DNA of 62,575 nt, filler included, from Kipferlia bialata (lineage: Eukaryota), in assembly GCA_003568945.1 (NCBI GenBank). It is 5 parts of 5 records of this genome, joined end to end, with 100 filler letters (N's around TTAATTAATTAA, not from the genome) between each part and the next. Parts side by side here need not be neighbours in the genome. Positions count along the whole stretch, not along the records: positions 40,202 to 54,596 come from BDIP01000822.1; 4 more parts are not named here. The stretch is one strand, 5' to 3'. Positions within the stretch are counted from its first letter, which is position 1, and every line of letters begins with the position of its first letter. Of the stretch, positions 11,763 to 50,372 are shown one piece after another. The translations under genes were made by a program, and so were the position numbers. The notes below the pieces were generated by a model. It was given only the letters and a program-made list of their open reading frames with translations. It did no database searches and was not told the origin of the DNA.

Positions 11763-14358
11763 TGGTCCGTACCGGCTTGAGGATGACATCGAGAACCTGT
11801 TCCCTGGTGACTGTCCAGGACGGGGTCTTGCAGTGCAGGTGGGCCTTGTCGAAGGCCTGTACTCTGCTGCCTAGGAGTCAGACAGAGGTATTATTAGGTA
11901 TACATGAAGAGAGAGAGAGAGGGAGAGAGAGTACCTGTGTCGATGTCTGAGGGTGTCCCCTCTGGGTATGTCATGACGTGCATACCAAGTGCCATCAAGG
12001 GGCGGTTGTTGATGCGAGTGTCCTATGGGATCAGCATATACTATAAATACTGTTCGACTTTGAGTGGATACTGTAATATACACCCTGTACCTGCTGCGCC
12101 AGTGACAGCACAATGTGTCTAGTCCCGTTGGATGCACCCACTCTCAACTCAAACATAGGGGCATACATGCCAATCTGACTGAGGGGGTGAGACATCGACA
12201 CTGTAGGAATTATTTAGATGATCATAACAGTATGCATATATATACAGGAATGTCCAGTGCCTATATACCTCGAGCTAAACACCCCCGTGGCACTGTTGTC
12301 CTTCTTGGCCCACTCGCCATACTGCCTGGGGGTAAGCGTTCTCTCTCTCTAAATACACATTATTATCTCATACATACTACTTTGTATGAGTTGGAGACCA
12401 CTACTGTTATGTTCAACATACAGTAATATGAAGACCACTCACTTTCCGCTCTGCTGGAACTTGGTGGGCAGATAGCAGAAGTCCATGTTGGTGAAGACAG
12501 TCATGAGGATGTCGAGGGGCATCCACGAACAGCCTGGGATAAGAGATAATCTAATTTAAGTGAATAATCAATTACAGCACTGACCATTGTTTTACTCAGA
12601 AGAAGTATGAGATGTATACTTCCTTACCCTCGTCCTTGCGGACCTTTGCCAGCATCTTGTCCCTGTGCACTAGGGGTATGGTGCCCCAGCTTGACTTGTC
12701 AGCGGCATGGAAGGGACCACTGTACTTGGTGCTGCCTGGTGTTATAATTATACATAATAATACTATATGAGGAGAACACAAGCTAATAGACAGAAGAAGA
12801 GGGATTGAATGGCCAATGTATTGAATGACATGATATTTAGACTCACCATGGGGGTTACGGCACAGGACCATCTTGATGGGCTCTAGACTGGGGGTGAGAG
12901 AGATACATAGTAACTAATACACATGCTGAGTCGTGAATTCTATAGAGATATAGTGCTGTAGCACTCACCCCTGTCTTGGAATCTCGAACACACCCAGGAC
13001 CGAGTAGGCGTGCAGTGTTGTGATGCCATACTTTGCGGCATATGCGTTGTCCTTGTTGGCACTGCACCCCATGGCACCCGTACCCTGGAGTAAGGGAGGG
13101 GGGGGGGGGAGGGCATATTCTATAAATACTATTGTATCTAGCATATACCCAAATGAACTGTGAAAGGGAAGAAATGGATATATATGCCTTCGGTGGCATG
13201 AGTAGTATCTAGATATTGTACACCCACCCTTGAGAAGACTGCGTCCATCCTGGCCCATAGTTCCTTAGCCCCAGGAAGGGGGCCCTTAGAGGAGGGGGAG
13301 GAGGATCTGTGGTCAGAGAAGAATGATTGGACCACAACTCAATACCAGTATTATGATTGTTAGATGATAGTATCCACTCAAGAGAGAAGTATATACCGTA
13401 CCCTGACAGGGAGTGTGTGGGAGGGGGAGAGAGAGCGTTGCTGTTGGCAAGGCTGGTACTCTGCTTGGCCCTCTGCTCCTCTCTCTTGACCTCTCTCTCG
13501 GCCAGGGTGGAGAAGTGAAGGCGGAAGCCTGTGGGTGAGACACACAGATGTATATCTGTTCACAATACACCAATTAGGTCCCATGCATACCTACCCCCCC
13601 TGTCAGGTCGGTCAGGGCATCTGACGTGATACCACCTGAGAGTGAGAGGGAGGAGAGAACGCCTAGTCAAAGGAGCGTACATGCATACTAGTACATACAC
13701 ACATATATATATATACTCACCTATGATGGCTGCATATGACCCATGCAGCTTGGCATATGCCTTCTCGATGAAGGAGACCCACAGCTCACCCTGAGGTCAG
13801 GGGGGGGGGGGGCGAACATAAGGTACAATACATATATGTATGGAGTGAAGATAGTACCTTCTCAGTAGGGGGAGTGGGCGAGCAGAAGGTAAGATATTTA
13901 TATATATGTGTTTAATGGTAATAGACAGTACCTTCTCAGCTGATCTGGCGAATGCGGGCTGTCCATGGAGACAGGGCAGATAGTCATCTATCACTATGGG
14001 ACGCCAGGCCTCCTAGTGTAAGGCAAAATGTAAGCGAGTGCAATACTATGTTCAAATGTATGTATCTATAGTATGGTATACACTGCGTATCCCCACCTGC
14101 TTGTAGAACTGCAACTTGACCTCGCCCTTGATGGCATCATAGGAGACAAGGACCTTGCTGGGGGGTGAGAATGGTATGATAAAATATATATCATAAAGCC
14201 AAGTTACCTATTGGAGAGTGAGATATAGATGAGGAGGAGGAGGAGGAGGAGGAGCGGGGGAGGGGGGGGCAGTGTATGTATGAGAGAGTACCTGAGCACA
14301 TTGTCGAATGAACACACAGTGCTGACAGCAGACAGGAACCAGCAGTCACCCAGACACC
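10142..14358 (-). CDS. Calpain-family cysteine protease (CysPc + two domain III/C2-like repeats + short C-terminal beta domain); about 24 visible exons, 5'-truncated by the gap
   Basis: Catalytic motifs on separate exons: GCLGDCWFLSA (14292-14358), VIDDYLP, ELWVSFIEKAYAKLHGSY, DALTDLTGG, LHAYSVL (~13000), CRNPHG (~12850). Domain III motifs GEW..SATGC / VVPSVFDRGNEGLFCIRSFS, and again W..TAGG..SPQ / YILVPCTHGAAQTGNYIL. Stop TAG at 10142-10144. Confidence 0.93.
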
Positions 14359-25700: not shown

Positions 25701-26413
25701 GGGGGGGGGGGGGGGGGGGGGGGGGGGGGAGAGAGAGAGAGAGAGAGAGAGAGTAGAAGAGAAGAGATATTATATATAGAGATATTATATATTCGGTATG
25801 TAGCAGCTGTGCAATGAGGAGAGACAGTCTGGGTCCTCTGACAAGACACTGTCAGATGTATGTATACCCACGTACCGTAGTTGGTTCTGTCCCCATACAA
25901 TACCCCATCAACCTCACTCCCACATTGGCCTGATGAGACTGTGTAGTGCCAGGTGTTCTCGGAGTCCTGTAGTTGGACAACATGGGTAGAGAGAGATACA
26001 GAGGGGGGGAGAGAGAGCGGGCCAAGTCAAGTGCGTCAGTGATGATACCTGGAGGTGCACTGCTATGTCTGTGGCGTTGGTGAAGGAGACCACGACCTTG
26101 GACCCCGGCCAGTCAAAGGCCACCTCGTGGGTGGACTCCACATACCTGCCCACCACCTGGAAGTACTCACTGACAGGTCAGACATACATACATACATACA
26201 TGCTTACATATATATATATATATAGGGCATAATGAGTAGTAGAGTATGTGTGAGAGATAGAGACACCTGGAAGTACTCACTGACATGTCAGAGAGAGGGG
26301 GGGGGGGGGGGGATAGAGAAAGAGGGGGGTTACCTGTCGTATGGCACCATGGATGCATGTGCACACACTAATAATGCACACAGCGATGCGAGCAGCAGTA
26401 TGCCACGTGGCAT
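25701..26413 (-). CDS. Secreted carbohydrate esterase family 2 (CE2/SGNH)-like protein, N-terminal part; 3'-truncated
   Basis: Signal peptide MPRGILLLASLCALLVCAHA. Exon 2 EYFQVVGRYVESTHEVAFDWPGSKVVVSFTNATDIAVHL matches the CE2 N-terminal GR...FxWPGxxxxxxF motif. The catalytic SGNH domain is not in the window. Confidence 0.65.
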
Positions 26414-26703: not shown

Positions 26704-27585
26704 CTAGTTGACATACTTGACTGGGTAAGGCACCCTAGGCACCACCCTGCGGTACTTCTCCTTGGCGGTGTCTGTCTTGCCCACAGCTATGCAGCAGTGC
26801 ACCTTGTGGTCATCGGGGATGCCGCACTCAGCCTAAGGGTAAGAGGGAGACAGGTTGTTGTATCATATAGATATACAGTTATAACAATCACACTAAAATT
26901 TGTGTATATATGCGTCTCCCACCTTGAGGTTGGGGAACATCTCCAGACACATGGTGACCAGACCACCCCAGAAGGTGCCCAGGCCCTTAGCCACTGCGTA
27001 CAGCTCGAGGGTGGTGGCTGCTAGGATGGTGTCCTCGGCAGGGTCGTACCCCTTGTTGGCGGCATGGACAAGGACGAAGTGGGGTGCCCCGTGGAAGAGG
27101 GGGTCTGCCCCATCCTTGCCCTGGCCCTTGATCATGAAGGAGTACGGGTGGTCGGAGGGGAAGGCCTCGCCGATCTTGAGGCCCAGCTGGTGCATGAAGG
27201 CACGGCCCAGCACGGTGTACTCAACGGGACGGAAGTTGACGGCAGACGGGCAGTGCTGGGTGACGTCGAGTAGCTCAGTCAGATACTCCTCGGAGAGGGT
27301 GTCTGGAAGGAAGGACCGTACTGTGCGACGGGTCTCCACCAGGTGCCTGAAGTCATCTGCTGCGGTCTCACCCAGCTTGACCAGCCTCTGGGGGGTGGTG
27401 TCGAAGAGAGAGATGGCACCGGCGGGGCAGGCAGCAGCACAGTGGCCACAGGATATGCACCTCTCGGGGTGGACCACGACGGCCTTCTTGGCAGACACCT
27501 CAATCACACCAGCAGGGCACACGCTTGTGCAGCTGCCGCATCCAACGCAAGTATCAGCATCAATGGTGGGAACAGTAGGAGCCAT
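26704..27585 (-). CDS. Ferredoxin-nitroreductase fusion (2x[4Fe-4S] + nitroreductase), Giardia NR1/NR2-like; two exons
   Basis: CVGCGSCTSVCP and CISCGHCAAACP; RRTVRSF, PSAVNFRP, LFHGAP, GLGTFWGG. Intron ~26833-26922; exon 2 ends PYPVKYVN* at 26704-26706. Confidence 0.95.
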
Positions 27586-27637
27586 GGCTTGAGTTATCGA
27601 AAGAAAGTGGGTCGTGATTCAGCTCCATAATCAGAGC

Positions 27638-33112: not shown

Positions 33113-34635
33113 ATGCGGGTGTCAGTGCTGTTCTCCTCGTCCACTGGACATACGAGGTGAGGAATTACAGTCAGTGTCATTATCAAGACGGTTGAGTGGT
33201 CTGCTATAGATCTCTGTTCTAATAATGTCCTGGCATCGACGCTGCTGAGTACGGCAGTATCACCTACATTCGCCAATGTGTTTTATGTCCTTCCCCTCCC
33301 CCTCATCCCAGGGCAGCTGCTGAGCACGTGAGGGATGGGATGGAGACAGTGACCGGTGTCAGTGCCAGTCTCTGTAGTATGGTGCCCCTGTATAAGAGAC
33401 TGGTGGCCCACCAGGACGGGGCCTTCCCTGAGGCAGACGCCTATGTCTTTGCGGCATGGCCCATGTTCCACAGACCCCAAGCATTTGTGCAAGAGTATGC
33501 TAAGGTACATACCACTCCTTTCCCAACACAGTCTCACACTGTCCTGTGTTTGCCTGTCACTTTCATCATCCCCCTCACACAGGCATTCCCCCCAGAGCTG
33601 CTGAGGGACAAGCCCGTGGCTGTGTTCTGTACCAGCCAGGGTGCACCAGGTAGGGTGGAGTCAATCTTGGTTGTTTGATACTGATCCTGATGCCAGTTTG
33701 TTTATGGTATTTTCACACAGTCACGACCCATGCACCATTGGTCTTACCATCAGGGCGGCTATATCGTGTGATTGCGGCCCCCCTACGGAAGAAGGGTGCT
33801 CTCATTGCCAGCTATAAGGACTTTGACGTGACACCCCTAGCACCTCCCTGCATCAGTCAAGAGAGGGAGGCATCACACTCTGAAACAGCAACTGATACGA
33901 GGAAGCGCATTCCAGAGACAAAGGTAGGCAGTATCAACTCCCCCCCCCCCCCTACCAGCTAACTTCACGAATTACTACTCGATACATCAACCCCAGGCTG
34001 CGTCCATATCTGAGTGGGGTGCATCCCTTCCCGCTGCCTTCCAGCGTGCTATCGATGCCAAGAACGGAGCCAACCCCCTCCAGCTGCAGCATGAGACAGA
34101 GGCTGACCCGAGTGTGACAGGAGTGTCAGGGTGTGGAGGTGATAGTAGCCCAAGGGTGCGTGTTGGTACCAATGGCACCCCCAGGGCATGCACCCTCTCC
34201 CACCCCCTCTACCAACGGATAGTGGGGCCTGTGGTAGTGGACCCCGACCTGTGTGTTGGGTGTGGGGCATGTGCCAGTGCCTGTCCCTACGACAACATTG
34301 TGATAGAGGGGATCGCGTCTTATGACCCGGCCCACGGCAGTGGCCACCCCTGCGAGGTGAGAGCTATCCACATATGGTATTTGTAATTGTCTCTCTGTGA
34401 TAGTGCTACACCTCACCCCCAGGGCTGCATGAGCTGTGTGTCTGCGTGTCCCAACCGTGCCCTGAGTGTGTCCCCTGCCTGGGTGTGTGACACAGACACA
34501 GGCCTGCCAGTGGATGCATGTACCAGTAGCAGTGACGATGCCCATGAGGATAGGGACCCCCCCTCCGACCCCCTCGATGCCCAGTCTCTATCAGACTGGC
34601 ATGGGTCGGTGGAGCAGTGTGGGACACCCTGGTGA
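33113..34635 (+). CDS. Flavodoxin-like + 2x[4Fe-4S] ferredoxin protein (EFR1-family-like); about 6 exons
   Basis: MRVSVLFSSSTGHTR (flavodoxin SxTGNT loop), ADAYVFAAWPMF, KPVAVFCTSQG; C-terminal CVGCGACASACP and CE|GCMSCVSACP. Confidence 0.85.
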
Positions 34636-34834
34636 CACAGTAATAGATGGAATATAGACCCAACAACCACCAATGTATCAGTATCCACAATAGATCTATT
34701 GGGTCACCAATCGACTTCACTTGGACAGAAGGACACAAAACAAATTACACCTGCCAGGTACACACACAAATATGATATCAACGGCTACTAAACTTGGGAG
34801 GCAGGGGGATACAAAAGGGGGTCTGTCTCTCTCC

Positions 34835-40201: not shown

Positions 40202-40250
<49 letters not shown>

Positions 40251-40323
40251 ATGGAGGCATATATATATGGATTAGAATAGAGGGTGGGGAGATGCAGGGT
40301 CTTCCATTGAATGTATATTGATG

Positions 40324-40355
<32 letters not shown>

Positions 40356-40409
40356 CACTAGTGGAGGGATATGGCGGGCTGTCTCTATATATATATACAC
40401 TGACTGTAC

Positions 40410-41502
40410 CTGTGTTCAGATGGGCACTCAGCTTCTGGGCAGTGGGTCGCATCTCAGCCCTGGGGATTAGTATTATTATTACATATACACACAGACATAT
40501 ACACATCTCAGCCCTGGGGAATAGTACTATTATTACATATACACACAGACATATACACATGTGATATGGTATATATATATATATACATATTATTATTATA
40601 TATATATATATATACATGTGATATGTCAGTGGGACGCATCTCAGCTCTGGGAGGGTAAGAGTACAGTAAGGGAAAGGGGGGTGGGGGGGGAGGTAACACA
40701 CATAGACATATACACACGTGATAGGTGTACCTTGGGTCAATTGTCTCATCGTTCACTGCGGCACTCTCGGTCTGCTCATCTGTGCCAACCTGCAGTGTCA
40801 GAGAGAGTAGGCAATAAGAGAAACAAAACTGGGAAGAGCAATAGAGGGTGGAATGGTGAGGATGAGCCTGGGAGGTGCTATATATCCAATGTCACACAAC
40901 TGCAACGATAAAAGGCAAAGAAAGTCAGCAACAGACCCAAACTCAAATACACAGCTTGCATACTTAGAATACGAGTATGTGTGGTAAACCAAATATTGCA
41001 ACACACATGCTCCCATATGCATTGACACTGCACCAAACGCACAATACCCCATATATACAAACAGAAACAAAGATATACATGCAGTGAGTACCTGCAGAGC
41101 TGGCACAAAGTATGCATTGAGGTGGTTCTCCAGTGACTCTAGGGTGCTCTTGTTAAGGACGCCAAAGTCCAGCACATGGGACATGAACCCCTCCAGACCC
41201 TCCTCACCCAGATCAGCAGGGAGAGCTATGGGCTGGTCGCTGGTGTGGATGAAGAAGACCCGCTTGGAGTCCCCATCCAGGTCTGAGTAGCCCTCCTGGC
41301 CGTGGCTGGCCATGGCCACCCCTGGGGACTGGGACACAGCATAGAACAGCACCACAGGGGCAGACAGAGAGTTCTGCAGGAAGGAAGTGAGCTGGTCATG
41401 CACCTGCGAGCTGTCAGCCTTCAGGAGACGCTCGAAAGCACTGCGTTCGAGGTTCAGCTCCAAACACACCACATCACGCAGCCACTCAATACGAGGGTCC
41501 AT
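40410..41502 (-). CDS. DNAH10: Axonemal dynein heavy chain N-terminus (inner arm I1-alpha / DNAH10-like); 3'-truncated
   Basis: MDPRIEWLRDVVCLELNL..FERLL..LTSFL...RVFFIH...LDFGVLNKSTLESLENHLNAYFVPAL resembles DHC1-alpha/DNAH10 N-termini. Further exons VGTDEQ..DPR and AEMRPTAQKLSAHLNT (40410-40459). Confidence 0.7.
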
Positions 41503-41756
41503 TCTCTAGTCACAGAATGACCCTGACCGGCGGTAGGAGTCAAGTTTGGACACTACTAACTGCCCTACGCCTACTTTTCGGTTGTGAGGCGCACTGCTTC
41601 CCGCACAGAGTCTGAACCAAAAATCTCATACCCTTTTTTCACAGCCAAGTTAAGTTAGCTGTAAAACCGAAAGGTATTATTCTATCCTTCGCTGGTTTAA
41701 CGGTTTAACTTTGAAAGTATGTTGAGCTTATGTTTTATATGGCCTGGGTTCGACTC

Positions 41757-41842
41757 TGCCACTGATGACAAAAATTATAGGTGATAGCCGTCTCCTTGTT
41801 GGTGATGCTGCTACTGATATATCCTAGATCTGTTCTGAGGCA
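41757..41842 (+). ncRNA. Candidate box C/D snoRNA
   Basis: TGCC-AC-TGATGA (41757-41768) ... CTGA-GGCA (41835-41842) forms a terminal stem. The element TAGATCTGTT before box D can pair (two G-U pairs) with conserved SSU rRNA AACAGGUCUG. Intergenic location. Confidence 0.35.
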
Positions 41843-42604
41843 TATTTTCTACCTTTTCACGTGAAATCAGATAATCACAGACTGGAAAGGCGCCCTGCCG
41901 GGGTATCTCTCTCACACACTTGATGGTTGTGTTTGTCTTAGATGGTTGTCTTTGCAGAGCCTGGGGAATATTTGCCATATATTCAGCTTCACAAAGTGTC
42001 TATTCACAGTGTGAATTTCACACCCCATGACGGGGTAGTAAGGGCCATTACCACATCCTCTCTGACTACATGCGGCATGCAGCCCATTCCTACACTAAGC
42101 CAGCTGTGTAAGGAACTCTTGGTCGTTGTAAGAGACATCGCCTTGGGTGGATGTGATCACCAGCAATGCTGGATAAGCATGTCCAGTAACCCCTCGGCAA
42201 CATGACCTGACATGTTCCTCAGTGTATATGATGTCTCGGATGTATCAGACCTACCCAGAATATGGCGGTAGTTTCTAGCCTTGCTCTCTATGCGGACAAG
42301 AAGCCTGGAGTCGCCGTCAATGTCCAAGTTGGACAGTCCAACGGGTCCTATGAGAACCGTCTATCTAGCTTATAGAAATTGCAGAAGGAGGTCACCTGTG
42401 GAATTATTGGAGGTGTCATTTACCTGGCTCTCCTTCTCTGTCAGAAGAGTAGCAGACGGTGCGTGGTGTCCCTGGAGTAGTAGACAGGAGGTGGAAGTGC
42501 CGTAGAATACGTACGTGGTTTGTCGATTCGTCCTCCTGCACCCTTTTCTCACAAACTTACTCACACCGATATGCTCTGGTCCATGTAGGGCTATATCTGT
42601 CACA

Positions 42605-42885
42605 ATGTCAGAGTTTGTCCTCAAGACCAGAGACGACTACATCCCCACTGACGGGAACTGTAAGAAGGTAGGTGGTCAGGGAGGATAGGAGAGAGAGTGG
42701 CTCTAGACCAATATTTGAGTCTGTCAACCATCATGTCCCCTCAACTTATCCCTCTCCCCTCCCCTCAATCTCTTCCCTCTCATCACATTCAAATAACTCT
42801 TGTGTGTAGCACCTCAGTGTGTATGGCATACTGCTCTGCAATTTGTGCTCATATATCGATTTCTGTTACCTGTATTTACCAGTGC

Positions 42886-42921
<36 letters not shown>

Positions 42922-45888
42922 CCCCCCTCCCCCTTATCGCTAGTGCGCGTCCACCAATATCCTGGGGGTCCAACGCAGGCTTTGCAGTGGGTATGAATGC
43001 TCTCTCTCTCTCTCTCTCTCTGTCTACTCTCTCTCTCTATACTCTCTCTCTATATATATATGTATACTCCCTCTCTCGCTATCTCGAAATGGATATGTAT
43101 GAGATCTATTCTTGGCAACCTGATGTCATATGTCCTCCTTTATTATTCTCTTTTTACCCTTTCCCCCTGCTTCACACTTCTTGTGTTATATACCTATTTC
43201 ATTCTCTCTTTCTGCTTCCTGGTGTTAAATACCGTGTGTCATGATTCGGGTAGTACTTATACGTATCTATACGTATTGAGATGCTATTAGTGATATATTC
43301 GTTTATTGTAGTACTTACTCTACTATACTGTCCATTTCGTTAGATACTGCGTGTCCTGCTTCCAGAACTATAATCTCTCTCTCTCTCTCTCTCTCTATCT
43401 TCTTCCGGGGTTGAAGTACTCTTAAGGCCTGGTTGACTATTTTTCTTCACTCATATTTATGTATCTATCTTACGCTAGATACTGCGTGTCCTGCTTCCAG
43501 AAGCTAGACAAGGGAGAGAGAGAGCAGGCGTGGAAGGAGGTACTTGAGTATATATAGGCATATATATATATATAGGTATATATATGAGTATATGAGGGAG
43601 GTACATCCTGGCTATGCTAGACGTATATATATGCATATATATATATAAGTATATATAGGTTTTTATAGGTATATATATGAGTGGCGTGGAGGGAGGTACA
43701 TCCTGGCTATGCTAGATGTATTAATATTCTATACTAAGCTATATTATTACTATTCTATACTGAGCTATATTATTTAGCTTACTATTATATACTAAGCTTA
43801 ATTATGTACTATTATATTTATTATTATTATACTAATGTGTAGTCTCTTATATACTATATAAGTTATATAGTATAACATAACCCTGAAAGAGCAGGCGTGG
43901 AAGGAGGTACTTGGGTATGTTAAATAGCAATACTATAAACTATTGTGTATCCCTATATATATAGTAATATTGTATGTCGCTGACCCCCAGGCCGAGCTGT
44001 CTGAGAAGGCCAAGTGGGAGGCAGACCTAGATGTATAATGAAATATATACAAAAGTATATTGTATACAATAGTTACTATAGTTCCTGACCCCCAGGCTGA
44101 GTTGGATGCATTGCTAGTATATAGTACTATATACTAATGTGACCTAACATCCAGGCCGAGCTGTCTGAGAAGGCCAAGTGGGGGGCAGAGCAGCGGGGGG
44201 TGGCAGGTACATCTATGTTCCAATATAAATACACAAATGTATATATATATATATATATTGTTATGGCGGTATGGTACCACAGTGGGAGGCAGAGCAGCGG
44301 GGGGTGGCAGGTANNNNATGGCGGTATGGTACCACAGTGGGAGGCAGAGCAGCGGGGGGTGGCAGGTACAGTGTCTATATATGTATACATATATATACTA
44401 TTATATATATGTTGTTATGGCGGTATGGTACCACAGTGGGAGGCAGAGCAGAGGGGGGTGGCAGGTACCTGTGCATATATCAGTATATATTCATTATGTA
44501 GAATATATAATATATATAGTATATATGGGTATTATTGTATGTGAGGATACTTCTGTAGGCAGAGCAGAGGGGGGTGGCAGGTACAATATATATAATAGTT
44601 ATACTTATCATAGATACCTCTATCCTCTATGGATATAAATATGTAGCTTCACACAGTATCGTCTAACCCTTCAGAGTGTGCCGCAGCATCGTCTATCCTA
44701 TATAAATATTGTGTATATATATTGTATATAATTTATAGACTAATTCTGTTGTATGTTTATCCTCTAACCCTCCAGAGTGTGCCGCGGCCATCGTCTGTCC
44801 CGTGTATATAGTATGTAGTATATATAGTATATATAGTGTATGTAGATATAATAGAATGTATATCGTCTAACCCTTCAGAGTGTGCCGCGGCCATTGCCAG
44901 CGGGGAGGTACCATTACTATACTATTATAGTATATATATATACTATACTACTATATATATATAGCTTCACAGAGTATCGTCTAACCCCTCAGAGTGTGCC
45001 GCAGCCATTGCCAGTGGGGAGGTACAGGTACGGGAAGCATATTTGTCTGTAACAGTAACTAGCGTTGTTTCTATATGCACTTTATACATGTCATTATGCT
45101 CTTTGTCCCTGTAGTAACTATGCGTTGTTTCTATATGCACTTTGTCCATGTAGTACTATTATATACTCATGTAGTCTATATTTATATATTAGTGTAATGT
45201 CTTTGTCCATGTAGTACTATTATATACTCTATTATATATTAGTGTAATGTCTTTGTACATGTAGCAGCCATTGCCAGCGGGGATGTACAGGTATGGAGGT
45301 GTATATACAGTGATACCTATCTGTAGTGATCGGTGGTATACCTCTGTCTAATGTATGTATATTATATATTTGATGCAGCCATAGCCAAGTCATATATATT
45401 ATAATATCCATATATATATACATGTTCATAGCCCCATACCCCCAGGTGACCCTCGAGAGACGGAATGGATACATACTGACCACCGATGTCAAGTGTCCAA
45501 AGGTATATATGTATATATATAGTGTATATATATAGTGTATATATATAGTGTATATATGTAGTATACATAAATACAGTGTATCTGTATATAGTATGGATCT
45601 ATATAGTGTATATATATAGTATACGGCTGATGTAAGGTGTCAAAAGGGGTACATAACTCGACTTCGAGTCTACATTCATTATATACTCCTATTGCAATCA
45701 TTCTCAATATACGGTGGTTTACTCTGTTTATCCATTGTTTCGTAGGTCACTCCCCTGTCAAAATCGTCTCTGGTCAATATCAGTCTGGCATCCTATTACT
45801 ACTCTATGATGTGGTTCTCTCTCTCTCACTCTCTCTCTATTTGTACTGAAGTTCCCGCCTCTCACTCACCCCCCCAGTGCAGCTTCTG

Positions 45889-45934
<46 letters not shown>

Positions 45935-48152
45935 GTGCAGCTTCTCCGGTGGCTGCAGTGGGTACTGCTCTGTCTGTTGGAATGGTCTATCAAAGAGGGA
46001 GAGGGAGGACGCAAACAAGAAGGTATACATGTGTATCGGTGACTATATATCTTGCACTATTCCTAGATAGTGGTCAATATATGCACTGTATGGATGTTCA
46101 CCCCAGGCCGAGGCCGGGCAGCCCCTAGGCCATGTTCAGTATATATATTATATCCAAGTATATCCATGTAGTATACATGTACCTGGTGTGCAAACATACT
46201 CAATATATATATATATATATATCAATATATATATAATGATTAATTACTCAATGTATGTATATTAACTAATTACTCTATATATGAATTATAACTAATGAAC
46301 TATGTATATACATACCCACACCCCAGGCCGAGGCCGAGCAGCCCCCCAATGTATATATACTAACTATGTACACATATTGTATACTTTGAAGTATTGTAGA
46401 TAGTATATATAGTATACATACCCACACCCCAGGCCGAGGCCGAGCAGCCCCTGAGGACACTGGCTGGGGACAGGAAGAGACAGGGTATATATATATATAT
46501 ATATATATAGGAATAATATATAAATAATAATATATATAGTATATATATACTATATATACCCTGAGGACACTGGCTGGGGACAGAAAGAGACAGGGTATGG
46601 GTATACTATACCCATATACCCATAATCTTACTAAGATAGATAGGTACCTTACTGTAACAGTAAGTTACTGTTGCATATAGTATACATACCCTCAGGACAC
46701 TGACTGGGGACAGAAAGAGACAGGGTGTGTTTGGGTATATGCATAGAGATAGATAGATACTGTACTGTACTGCGCCTACGCTCATAGCCAGTATCAGTAT
46801 CTTGATGCCGCCTCTGCCAAAGAGTCCCTTCTCTCTCTCCCTCTCCTAATATATACGTACATATACATATATACTCTTATCCCTAGACGCCACGTCCACT
46901 AAAGAGACCCCTTCTATCTCTCTCTCCCTCTTGTTGTACTGTTGCGCCTACGCTCATGGCCAGATATCGCCTCTGCCAAAGAGGCCATTCTCTTTCTCTC
47001 TTTTCTCTTTGCCTCTCTCTCAATACGCACATACACTACGCCAGCAGCCACATGTCGCCTCTGCTATTGAAGATACCGCTCTATTTATGTATATACGTGT
47101 ATCTTATACCCAGATGCCGCCTCTGCCAAGGAGGCCTCTGCCTCTGACAAGGTCACCAAGCAGTCCAGATACAGGGCACAGGTACATAGTTATATGGATA
47201 TATATATATTTATAATCATATATATGATATATATACATATAGACCCTTGTGGGGGATGATATATATATATATAGTCACTGATACTCTGTCCAGGTACAGG
47301 GCACAGGTACATAGTTATATGGATATATATACATAAATAAATATATACATTCATATATATGATATGAATGGATGTATAAGCAGTCCAGATACAGGACACA
47401 GGTACGTAGTAAAATATACATATATGTGTTGGTATATATATATGATACATATATATGTATAATGACCATTGTGGGGGATGATATATATATGTATTCACTG
47501 ATACTCTGTGTAGACACAGGGCTCAGGTACAGGGTATTGAGGCATATATACATATGATTGGGAGATATGCAAAGTGATATATCCTCATATATGATATACA
47601 CTGATGCGTTGATATTCTGTCGAGCCCTGCGTTTCCTGGAAGACTGCCTCTCTGTCCTTCTCTGACTGTCACTCACTCTCTCTCTCTCTCTCTCTCAATG
47701 TATATCAATATGCTGCTTATCTCTCTCATTGTTACTGATGAATACTAATATCTAAATGTATCTATATATCTGTGAATATCCATGTCATTATAACCCCAGG
47801 TGCTGCGCCGTCTCTCTGCCATCGGCCCTGTCACTCTGCTGGCACCCAACGACACACACCGCACAGTGCAGGGTGGGTATATGTGTATATGTATAGTACA
47901 GTACATGTGTGTGTATACAGATGCTGTTATATATATAGCCAACGACACCTTACAGTACAGGGTACTGGTGATATATAAGTTTACGAATTTGTGAATATAT
48001 GTATGTGTCACTACATACACATATATAAGGTCCCAACGGTATATGTGTCCTCTGTGTTTGTGTATCTGTATGTGTACATCACTAATGCTAGAGTGTCCAA
48101 GTCCCATGCCCATCACCTATCCTATATATACTCATCATATACATACTATCCC

Positions 48153-48188
<36 letters not shown>

Positions 48189-50273
48189 ATGCCTCATCTT
48201 AGGCTGTTCTGCAGATGTCCCATACTCCATGCCACTCTGACATCCTATATATACTCATATACATATACCATTCTATACATATACACATCACTAATGCTAG
48301 GCTGTGCTGCCAAGGTCCCATACTCCATGCCACTCTCATGTCTGCCCAAGGAGGTCATGGAGAGGTGGGAACAGTGTATATATGTACTAGTATGTCTGAC
48401 TCTCTAACCTACGGGTATGGCCACACCCTGCCCTACACGATGCCCCCTGGTACAGCATATTGTAGTATATATACCTATATGGCATATATGTATATATACA
48501 TTATTATCCTGATATGTATGTATGACCACACCCTGCACCTTGCCGCCTGGTATTGTATATAGTAGTACATGTCTATCTTACGCCCTCCCCTTTATATGTA
48601 TACATGTATATGTGTGTCTGTATACTCTCTATCCTCTAGATATGGCCACATCCTGCCCTACACCATGCCCTATATATATATACATTACTGTATCTGATAT
48701 ACAGGTATGGCCACACCCTGCCCTACACCATGCCCCCTGGTACAGTATATAGTAGTATATATATACTTATCTTATATATATAGATACCCTATATACTCTT
48801 TACCTCTAGGTATGGCCACACTCTGCCCCACACCATGCCCCCTGGGGTGGAGGTCAGGGCATGTGGGTGAGGGAGGAAGGAGGTATGTTGTTGTGTATAT
48901 TAATGTGTAATAACTACTTTATATGTGTTGGATATGCCTAGATTAGGGCAAGTGGGTGGGGGAGGAAGGGGGTGCGTGTACACGTCACTACTTCCACTAA
49001 TCAGTACACCTATAGTGGTGTGCTTCATTGTCAGTCCTTATCATATATACATATATACATATATATATACATGTATATCTCCATATGGGTAAACCAACAC
49101 ATTGTATATGTATTGACACCAGTCCCCCCCTGCCCCCAGAGTGTGGATACTGTCATCAGTCACAGGGCACTGGGGGCAGCAAAGGTATGGGTATATATAG
49201 ACATATATATATATATATATAGTGTGGATACTGCCATCAGTCAGAGGGCACTGGGGGCAGCAAAGGTATTGTTAGCGCATATATTTATACATATAGTATG
49301 TATGTATATAGTATGTACATATATAGTATATATATGTCAGTGAGATGGCACTGGGGGCAGCAAAGGTATTGATAGTGGATAGCGGATATAAATGCACATG
49401 TATGTATGCACTGAAAAGTATGTCCCTCACCCCTAGTCCGTCTTCGATATATATATATATATTTATGTCCTCATTTCCAGTCCCTCTTCGATGCCGCAGC
49501 AGGTGCGACCTTTGAGACAGAGAGCAGTGAGAGGTGTGACATACATATATACACTATGTATACACTATATATATATGTGAGAGGTATATACACTATATTT
49601 ATATATGCGAGGCCACCTTTGAGACAGAGAGCAGTGATAGGTGGGAGTATAGTGCAAAGATACATACATATAGTATACTAGAGGTATGGTAATCAAATCA
49701 TGGAGTGTATGAAGTATGGAGTATAGATGCACATGTTAGTATATTGTATATATGTGTATATACAGATGGATACAGCATACTCATTTTCTGCACTTACCCT
49801 CACAGCTGCACTGCGTGGTTCATATATTCTATACTTTCGTATTCTTCTATATTTATACGTATATATACGGTAAATACATGTCTCTATTAACCCAGCTACA
49901 CTGCGTGGTTCATCCCCTCTGTATACTCTATATGTATGGGTATATATATATATATATATTCATTGTCTCTATCAATCCCAGCTACACTGCGTGGTTCATC
50001 CCCTCTGACCTGACTGATGATGAGTGCCCGGTGGTGCTGTCAGAGACACTCATGCCCAAGGTATACATGTATATGTGTATAGAGTATACATAGGGTATGA
50101 TACTATTGAATGATACGGTATGCCCAAGGTACGGTGGACACGGTCAGTAGTGTGTTAGTGTATGCATGACCCACTATGTGTGTTTTCAATTGTACATCAG
50201 ACTATATCCCCCCCCCCCCCCTAACACCCTTCTAACCCCAGGTTAGCCTAGGCTGTGGGTCAGACAGTGACAG
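42605..50273 (+). CDS. Multi-exon protein with two tandem Cys-rich (A20-like) zinc-finger modules; 3' end uncertain
   Basis: Phase-consistent reconstruction: MSEFVLKTRDDYIPTDGNCKK|CASTNILGVQRRLCSG|YCVSCFQKLDKGEREQAWKE|AELSEKAKWGAEQRGVAE|CAAAIASGEVQ|VTLERRNGYILTTDVKCPK|CSFSGGCSGYCSVCWNGLSKREREDANKK|AEAEQPLRTLAGDRKRQD|AASAKEA..RYRAQ|VLRRLSAIGP..|GCAAKVPYSMPL..|YGHTLP..|SVDTVISHRALGAAK|SLFDAAAG..|YTAWFIPSDL..LMPK. Confidence 0.7.
43341..50135 (+). repeat. Intronic partial exon copies ('exon echoes') throughout the zinc-finger gene
   Basis: Examples: TAGATACTGCGTGTCCTGCTTCCAGAA at 43341 and 43476; GCAGAGCAG(C/A)GGGGGGTGGCAGGTA five times 44185-44583; CTAACCC..CAGAGTGTGCCGC four times 44663-45002; TATG(G/A)CCACA..CTGC five times 48417-48826. 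Confidence 0.95.
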
Positions 50274-50372
50274 GTGGGGAAGGAATCTATCCATACTCTC
50301 TCTCTCTCTCTCTCTCTCTCTCAATCTCTCTCTCTCTAGCCCCCTGTTACTCACAAACAGTTTGCATTCTAG

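What the first reader, a model, noticed from the sequence alone, without database searches (positions are those of the whole stretch)
40405..40655. Echoes also occur in a conserved dynein heavy-chain gene
Seen (minus strand): full exon CCAG|GGCTGAGATGCGACCCACTG (40459 downward), with upstream copies CCAG GGCTGAGATG (~40504-40518) and CCAG AGCTGAGATGCGTCCCACTG (~40627-40650). The longer copy differs only at silent sites (AGG/AGA across the junction, CGA/CGT). If this gene is single-copy, as I1-alpha usually is, the donor of variant sequence would be alleles or past states rather than paralogues, which discriminates between models.
Basis: partly seen in the sequence, partly recalled or inferred. 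Interest (0 to 1): 0.7.

Follow-up and report, generated by a model that had tools for sequence, protein, structure and literature searches.

The report
Old splice junctions stranded in introns
An intron of a single-copy-looking dynein gene in the protist Kipferlia holds two partial copies of the next exon's start that the main transcript skips; like dozens of others nearby, they are likely older versions of the splice junction left behind when DNA repair duplicated it, so introns would keep a layered record of past exon sequence.

Summary
Intron 2 of a DNAH10/I1-alpha-type dynein gene of Kipferlia bialata holds two copies of acceptor plus exon-3 start (20 nt, two silent changes; 10 nt, none). 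DNA contigs carry both echoes, an RNA contig skips both, and no close paralogue or second allele was seen. Two silent changes alone prove little: P is about 0.17 under plain duplication. The wider pattern is the find. In three genes 24 of 34 introns hold 59 echoes, and 53 include the splice site facing their exon. Of 67 distinct differences 28 are silent (42%), as expected for duplication then neutral decay (37-42%), far below a strongly constrained donor. Outer echoes are more diverged (30/423 vs 16/453) and keep ordinary intron ends, while the working junction sits beside TA-rich DNA (20 of 26). Best reading: repair-made tandem duplications rebuild the junction and strand the old one, so echoes are past states (0.55). 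Allele-templated copying remains open (0.3), because intron flanks differ far more than exon parts.

The parts
41092..41502 (-). Exon 1 (137 codons) of a DNAH10 / I1-alpha-type dynein heavy chain, annotated KIPB_004020 (partial)
   Evidence: RNA contig covers 41552-41090
40790..41091 (-). Intron 1 (302 nt), no echo found
   Evidence: RNA joint skips 302
40731..40789 (-). Exon 2 (59 nt), ends two bases into an Arg codon
40647..40730 (-). Unit A: 84 nt from the working donor GT to the far echo's AG, with a C-rich 3' part; likely the older, complete intron
   Evidence: sequence, alignment, composition AT 0.37 vs 0.80 at the working acceptor; 'older' is inferred
40627..40646 (-). Far echo: first 20 nt of exon 3 with two silent differences (40646, 40634); skipped in RNA
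   Evidence: inside one 2332-nt DNA contig with exons 1-2, 0 other letters
40558..40626 (-). TA-rich sequence with imperfect copies of the intron's first 30 nt; likely newer
   Evidence: (family D1); the read-laying tool skipped 40533-40626 as repeat
40504..40557 (-). Upstream copy of a 54-bp tandem duplication: 44 nt intron end plus middle echo (40513-40504); 3-nt microhomology (ATG) at the junction; branch-like CTAAT reads CTATT here (40521)
   Evidence: junction held by an 81-nt DNA contig
40460..40503 (-). Working intron end with branch-like CTAAT (40470-40466) and the AG used in RNA
   Evidence: RNA joint skips 271 to this AG; branch role inferred from motif
40410..40459 (-). Exon 3 (50 nt); the gene continues beyond the contig end at 40202
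   Evidence: RNA contig of 6152 nt runs on past 40410
42605..50662 (+). Neighbour gene KIPB_004021 (same contig): 30 echoes, 12 of 16 introns; used for the statistics
55257..62372 (-). Gene KIPB_004043 (next contig): 27 echoes, 11 of 16 introns; used for the statistics

Best explanation
The echoes are skipped, tandem copies of a splice site plus an exon stub, and are likely the former splice junctions, displaced into the intron when error-prone break repair (likely polymerase-theta end joining) duplicated a 50-200-bp segment with one end in the exon and one in the intron. Shown: copies are tandem, include the splice site facing their own exon, are skipped in RNA where tested, and are more diverged the further out they lie; the working junction is flanked by TA-rich DNA while the outermost echo has an ordinary intron end. 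Inferred: a break in or near the exon is repaired by re-copying across the junction and joining at microhomology, often through TA-rich new sequence. Events wholly inside an exon are purged; events across a junction survive because only the inner copy belongs to a complete exon with both splice sites. The stranded copy then decays neutrally while the exon changes mostly at silent sites, which gives about 40% silent differences. In the dynein intron this happened twice: an older event left the 20-nt echo, and a recent clean 54-bp duplication left the 10-nt echo.
For: Polarity: 31 upstream echoes carry the acceptor, 22 downstream carry the donor, none reversed, 6 of 59 touch neither. Silent share 28 of 67 (42%, 95% CI 31-54%) against 23-27% for pure neutrality, 37-42% for duplication with a fully constrained exon, 60-88% for a donor with dN/dS up to 0.2 (p below 0.004). 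Differences shared by two or more echoes are 8 of 12 silent, private ones 20 of 55. Farthest echo 30/423 vs nearest 16/453 differences over 16 junctions, Fisher p 0.022; paired 12 vs 3, p 0.053. Working flank more TA-rich than outermost echo flank in 20 of 26 junctions, 5 reversed, p 0.0007; AT 0.79 vs 0.67, echo-free junctions 0.66 (n=39). Working acceptor scores above its echo in 22 of 28. Clean young duplications exist (54, 132, 156 bp); the 54-bp one has a 3-nt microhomology. K. bialata is listed with PolQ and without Ku70, Lig4 (PMC8516963 supplement rows). RNA skips echoes in 4 of 4 echo-bearing introns covered.
Against: Similarity stops abruptly at the splice dinucleotide: exon parts differ at 67 of 1241 sites (5%), the next 12 intron bases by 176 of 576 edits (31%; unrelated introns 41%), and 33 of 48 flanks have 3 or more edits. 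Plain duplication with one mutation rate cannot give this; the model needs new or fast-changing sequence right up to the site, and I cannot say why it starts there. A direct test for faster change in AT-rich DNA was negative on average (14-17% mismatch in all classes of young units). In 8 clearly homologous flanks, introns differ 15% but only 4 non-silent exon differences are seen against 11 expected (p 0.01). Amino-acid differences are more conservative than random (p 0.006). Microhomology was examined at one junction only. Echoes were found by their exon part, which inflates exon identity; echoes are not independent; 57 of 59 come from two genes.
Confidence: 0.55

Rival explanations
1. Allele copy-in: the two copies come from diverged homologous chromosomes, joined out of register by aborted homologous repair plus end joining. 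Both were working junctions while they diverged, so exon parts stayed alike and introns drifted apart. It overlaps with the best explanation: the echo would still be the old state, and the new copy an allele's.
For: Sharp boundary at AG/GT. Echo acceptors keep a branch-like motif in 17 of 28 (working sites 18 of 34, other intronic YAG 24 of 308), in 8 of the 17 a motif the working site lacks; retention exceeds a half-decay null (p 0.002-0.04, probably too small because indels inflate the null's decay). Conservative amino-acid changes; pN/pS 0.37; a donor with dN/dS 0.3-0.5 fits the silent share. K. bialata is suggested to be diploid (PMC5874029). Inter-homolog end joining is described in mice (10.1101/2020.06.23.168138).
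Against: No second allele or echo variant in DNA or RNA contigs. Random allele pairing does not predict the TA asymmetry. Up to four different flanks per junction need many donors. Copies that share a non-exonic breakpoint leader (44263-44468) also diverge right after GT, and a 45-nt intronic block is identical between units whose AT-rich parts differ, so selection on exons is not the only cause of the boundary. Silent share does not rise with flank divergence (16 of 39 vs 10 of 21).
Confidence: 0.3
2. Echoes are functional: minor cassette or mutually exclusive mini-exons, or splicing helpers, kept by selection.
For: Most keep their splice dinucleotide (AG 26 of 28, GT 21 of 21, partly by how they were chosen). 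The public model of KIPB_004021 includes one echo as a 42-nt exon. A few echoes have both AG and GT in a usable frame (44879, 48705).
Against: RNA contigs skip that exon and all echoes covered. First GT after the echo gives a multiple of three in 6 of 18 and the real exon's frame in 6 of 18, i.e. chance. One echo has a stop. Neither dynein echo is seen in RNA.
Confidence: 0.07
3. Variants come from close paralogues by ectopic conversion.
For: Dynein heavy chains are a gene family (general knowledge); the searches used exon 1, not the echoed exon.
Against: 4 hits at E up to 0.001 among 1.84 billion representatives: itself and three at 29-37% from other records; its 90% cluster has 1 member; no other contig at 85% or more shown on exons 1-3, and one unbranched 2332-nt contig spans exons 1-2 (14 of the two runs' pieces were not listed). 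Both neighbours returned only themselves (1 of 1 and 1 of 3 candidates).
Confidence: 0.03
4. Assembly artefact: alleles or repeats stitched in tandem near a contig end.
For: The contig ends 200 nt after exon 3 in a homopolymer; 40533-40626 was skipped as repeat, so no listed contig spans the whole intron; run X1 may be the source of the window. One 55-bp double at 44263-44368 straddles an NNNN gap and may be an artefact.
Against: Separately assembled contigs hold the far echo with exons 1-2 (depth figure 440), the 54-bp junction (340) and an echo-filler-exon stretch at 43989-44180 (434), all without other letters and at depth figures like neighbouring contigs.
Confidence: 0.02

Closest known systems
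Minisatellites spanning an exon-intron boundary with silent pseudo-sites (human F7 IVS7, CBS IVS13, LMNB2, PDGF; PMC1557585, abstract and introduction read)
   Same: Tandem copies repeat a splice site inside the intron; the copy next to the exon is used.
   Different: Those are regular arrays of near-identical units at a few loci, all donor-side in the text read. Here units are irregular, 1-4 per junction, on both sides, carry 10-51 nt of exon, have unlike intron flanks, and occur in 24 of 34 introns of three genes.
Staggered-break repair in Daphnia neointrons (PMC4202315, abstract and passages read)
   Same: Direct repeats attributed to repeated break repair, proposed to lengthen and diversify introns.
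   Different: Described for newly gained introns and ascribed to NHEJ; here existing junctions are copied in a lineage listed without Ku70 or Lig4, and no new intron is shown.
Polymerase-theta end joining with templated insertions and after aborted SDSA (Drosophila; PMC2895639, passages read)
   Same: Junctions with microhomology and imperfect copies of adjacent sequence.
   Different: Reported inserts average about 4-13 nt; spacers here are 30-250 nt. Microhomology checked at one junction only.
Intron gain by tandem duplication (Hellsten et al., PMC3265369, abstract only)
   Same: A local duplication that splicing hides from the protein.
   Different: There an exon segment is duplicated and becomes a new intron; here the duplication spans an existing junction and intron number is unchanged.

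Membership tests
DNAH10 / I1-alpha dynein heavy chain | N-terminal tail similar to DNAH10-type chains | tested here: met
   Profile E 1.5e-7 to DNAH10, aligned from residue 2; only two hits for exon 1, both of this type by name or length (naming the 4625-aa chain as Chlamydomonas I1-alpha is recalled)
DNAH10 / I1-alpha dynein heavy chain | AAA+ motor ring and phylogenetic placement | not testable with these tools
   Not in the window; the RNA contig is 6152 nt but only 30 further letters were shown
DNAH10 / I1-alpha dynein heavy chain | Single copy in the genome | tested here: met
   Indirect; no whole genome was held
Tandem duplication across a splice junction | Direct, adjacent copies with one end in exon, one in intron, and the expected polarity | tested here: met
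   53 of 59 echoes, none reversed
Tandem duplication across a splice junction | Intron part of the unit is also a recognisable copy | tested here: inconclusive
   Met for the 54-bp unit and 8 of 48 flanks at 40 nt (12 of 52 at 45 nt); most flanks are no closer than unrelated introns
Splice-junction minisatellite (VNTR) | Regular array of near-identical units, variable in number | tested here: not met
   About 2 copies per array, 77-96% matches, irregular periods; variation in number not testable
Polymerase-theta end-joining product | Short microhomology or templated filler at junctions | tested here: inconclusive
   3-nt microhomology at the 54-bp junction; imperfect nearby copies at 40626-40558; not surveyed across echoes
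Polymerase-theta end-joining product | Dependence on PolQ | not testable with these tools
   Gene listed for K. bialata; no mutant data
Alternative or mutually exclusive exon | Inclusion in transcripts and frame preservation | tested here: not met
   Skipped in RNA contigs; frame at chance; rare isoforms are invisible in contigs
Intron gain by tandem duplication | New intron whose ends copy the flanking exons | tested here: not met
   Echoes lie inside existing introns

The most novel reading that the evidence does not exclude
Kipferlia rebuilds its splice junctions again and again: repair lays down a new exon end, splice site and intron flank (from a diverged allele or by heavily error-prone synthesis filtered by selection) and pushes the old junction outward. 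Introns are then stratified archives of earlier exon alleles and earlier splice signals, readable in age order from one genome, and the same process could drive intron growth in an intron-rich lineage without NHEJ.
Probability: 0.3. Interest if true: 0.78.

Novelty: new variant of a known kind. Interest (0 to 1): 0.5.

Why it matters
Each echo is a natural competition between two copies of a splice site, so thousands of them would show how an intron-rich metamonad with a reduced spliceosome (87 of 174 proteins searched; PMC6679479) chooses sites. Ordered echoes would give a time series of exon and branch-point change without outgroups, in a lineage with one genome. They also tie intron length and TA content to break repair. 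Practically, echoes mislead gene prediction: one public model includes an echo that the RNA contig skips. The dynein case alone is one modest example.

Tried and rejected
No whole genome was held, so copy number is indirect and all counts come from this window. Exon 1 against longer proteins found none of 380 candidates; the search stops at 2000 aa. Pfam gave 0 families for exon 1. The 173-aa query ranks haemoglobin hits level with DNAH10; I treat these as chance. The run search listed no holder on record as RNA; X2 is called RNA here because its contigs join exons at GT-AG. There is no read evidence for introns beyond 44300, so those exons rest on public gene models. The protein-atlas search did not complete. 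Spliced-mRNA template: rejected by eye, since working and echo acceptors resemble intron ends, not the previous exon's end. Short patches dropped at random into introns: rejected, since echo flanks have branch-like motifs and C content 0.49 against 0.20 background. Faster change in AT-rich DNA: not shown on average. Correlation of exon and flank divergence: rho 0.19, p 0.19. Look-ups of earlier findings returned nothing.

Full report
Setting. The window is five pieces joined by 100-base spacers. The piece 40202-54596 is 14,395 bases, the contig length given for proteins KIPB_004020 and KIPB_004021 of Kipferlia bialata; a third gene is KIPB_004043. No whole genome was held.

Observation. Both echoes are at the stated places. 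The far echo is the only second match with up to 3 mismatches in the window, and 0 of 100 shuffles gave one. Its two differences are silent in the spliced frame. The middle echo belongs to a 54-bp duplication with 2 differences, both intronic; one turns a branch-like CTAAT into CTATT in the upstream copy, and the junction has a 3-nt microhomology. The far echo ends an 84-nt unit that reads as a full intron with a C-rich end; its first 30 nt recur imperfectly downstream, but its 3' part has no counterpart before the working AG.

Gene and copy number. Exon 1 hit 2 of 177,635 solved-structure sequences, DNAH10 and a 4625-aa chain; a two-sequence profile gave E 1.5e-7 for DNAH10. The echoed residues lie outside the aligned parts. 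Among 1.84 billion representatives 4 scored E up to 0.001: the protein itself and three at 29-37%. Its 90% cluster has one member. In run X1, one 2332-nt contig covers 40627-42880 without other letters and an 81-nt contig holds the 54-bp junction; 40533-40626 was skipped as repeat, and 14 pieces were not listed. X1 may be the window's source. In run X2, a 6152-nt contig joins exons 1-2-3 at the innermost AG with no other letters; a second contig skips the echoes in introns 2, 3 and 4 of the neighbour gene, including a 42-nt exon of the public model. Contigs drop rare variants, so rare alleles and isoforms are untested.

The wider set. Short direct repeats are rare in 1-40,000 (4 of 101) and dense after 42,500. 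I mapped three proteins to exons, removed the RNA-skipped exon, and found 59 echoes in 24 of 34 introns. Echo-bearing introns are longer (median 438 vs 224 nt). Upstream echoes carry the acceptor (31), downstream ones the donor (22), 6 neither, none reversed. This is the geometry of tandem duplication with one end in the exon. Silent-site counts use all 59. Flank tests drop the 6 that touch no site, 4 at two doubtful exon boundaries of KIPB_004043 and 1 with N, leaving 48.

Silent sites. 28 of 67 distinct differences are silent (42%, CI 31-54%). Expectations from the same codons: 23-27% neutral (p 0.0007-0.008), 37-42% for duplication with a constrained exon, 60-88% for a donor with dN/dS up to 0.2 (p below 0.004), 41-55% for a donor at 0.3-0.5 (mostly not rejected). 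For the dynein echo, two of two silent has P 0.16-0.18 under duplication. Non-silent changes are more conservative than random (p 0.006), which shows that some passed protein selection.

Which copy is old. At 16 junctions with two or more echoes the farthest has 30 differences in 423 sites, the nearest 16 in 453 (Fisher p 0.022; paired p 0.053). The 30 intron bases beside the working site are more TA-rich than those beside the outermost echo in 20 of 26 junctions (5 reversed; by gene 10:5, 1:0, 9:0). Outermost echo flanks match echo-free junctions (AT 0.67 vs 0.66, p 0.75), working flanks do not (0.79, p 0.0001). I infer that the echo is the old junction and that new TA-rich DNA arrives with, or after, the new copy.

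What stays unexplained. Likeness ends at the splice dinucleotide: median exact run 2 nt on the intron side, 10 on the exon side; 31% edits in the next 12 bases against 5% in exon parts. Yet echo acceptors look like real ones: branch-like motif (my pattern, read off the window's introns and like the fused branch-acceptor motifs in PMC6679479) in 17 of 28, against 24 of 308 other YAG sites. One mutation rate after a clean duplication cannot give this. Either the new copy brings new flank almost to the site, or both copies diverged while working, as alleles would. For alleles. Against: no second allele, the asymmetry above, and intronic blocks that stay identical beside diverged AT-rich stretches. 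A test for AT-dependent divergence was negative on average. Echoes were found by their exon parts and are not independent, so p-values are optimistic.

Mechanism. Shown: tandem geometry, skipping, gradient, asymmetry. From papers: metamonads lack NHEJ (PMC8516963 passages); K. bialata is listed with PolQ and without Ku70, Lig4, Lig3 or PARP (supplement file 6 rows; file 1 had no text); polymerase theta joins ends after aborted SDSA and leaves imperfect templated copies (PMC2895639 passages). Inferred: break, re-synthesis across the junction, microhomology joining, survival of events whose inner copy is a whole exon. That truncated duplicates of splice sites are skipped in vitro (Reed and Maniatis 1986) is recalled, from no call.

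Known relatives and novelty. Splice-spanning minisatellites with silent pseudo-sites (PMC1557585, abstract and introduction), repeat-bearing Daphnia neointrons (PMC4202315 passages), inter-chromatid duplications (10.1101/2020.06.23.168138 passages) and intron gain by duplication (PMC3265369 abstract) are the nearest. Parts 1-3 of 6 of the genome paper (PMC5874029) report 124,912 introns and suggested diploidy and do not mention such copies. Seven paper searches (listings seen, some cut to the top 10-20) showed no report of dense, polarised junction copies; subscription journals are largely missing. Look-ups of earlier findings returned nothing.

Verdict. Real and not an artefact. The dynein case is a small sample of a locally dense process; its two silent changes are suggestive only. 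New variant of a known kind; interest 0.5, up to about 0.78 if genome-wide and population data show ordered archives of former junctions.

Noticed in passing
window 43991-44032 (+): The public model of KIPB_004021 includes this echo as an exon; the RNA contig skips it. Likely an annotation error or a minor isoform.
   Followed up: partly
window 44181 (+), exon 44155-44206: Four echoes on both sides read Glu where the expressed exon reads Gly, so the exon likely changed after the copies were made.
   Followed up: partly
window 48414-48450 and 48705-48745 (+): Two echoes end in the same GTAC donor-like site at a place that is mid-exon today; possibly a former intron position or a shared breakpoint.
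   Followed up: no
window 13792-13945 (-): In a calpain-like gene (name recalled from motifs, no call) with many short introns, one intron is present twice in tandem, about 75% alike, separated by about 9 nt of exon end plus GT.
   Followed up: partly
window 26150-26345 (-): Echo with the same layout as the dynein one: C-rich upstream intron end, 16-nt exon stub, TA-rich spacer, working acceptor.
   Followed up: partly
window 26899-27588 (-): Ferredoxin-nitroreductase fusion gene (Pfam Fer4 plus Nitroreductase); a similar Fe-S gene lies near 33,200-34,700 (+).
   Followed up: no
window 53200-53910: Further cluster of local repeats, including a roughly 490-bp-period duplication, in an unmodelled gene.
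   Followed up: no
window 44263-44368: 55-bp exact double across an NNNN gap; possibly an assembly overlap.
   Followed up: no
window 42605-46022 (+): KIPB_004021 has two cysteine clusters that resemble A20-type zinc fingers (recalled, not tested).
   Followed up: no
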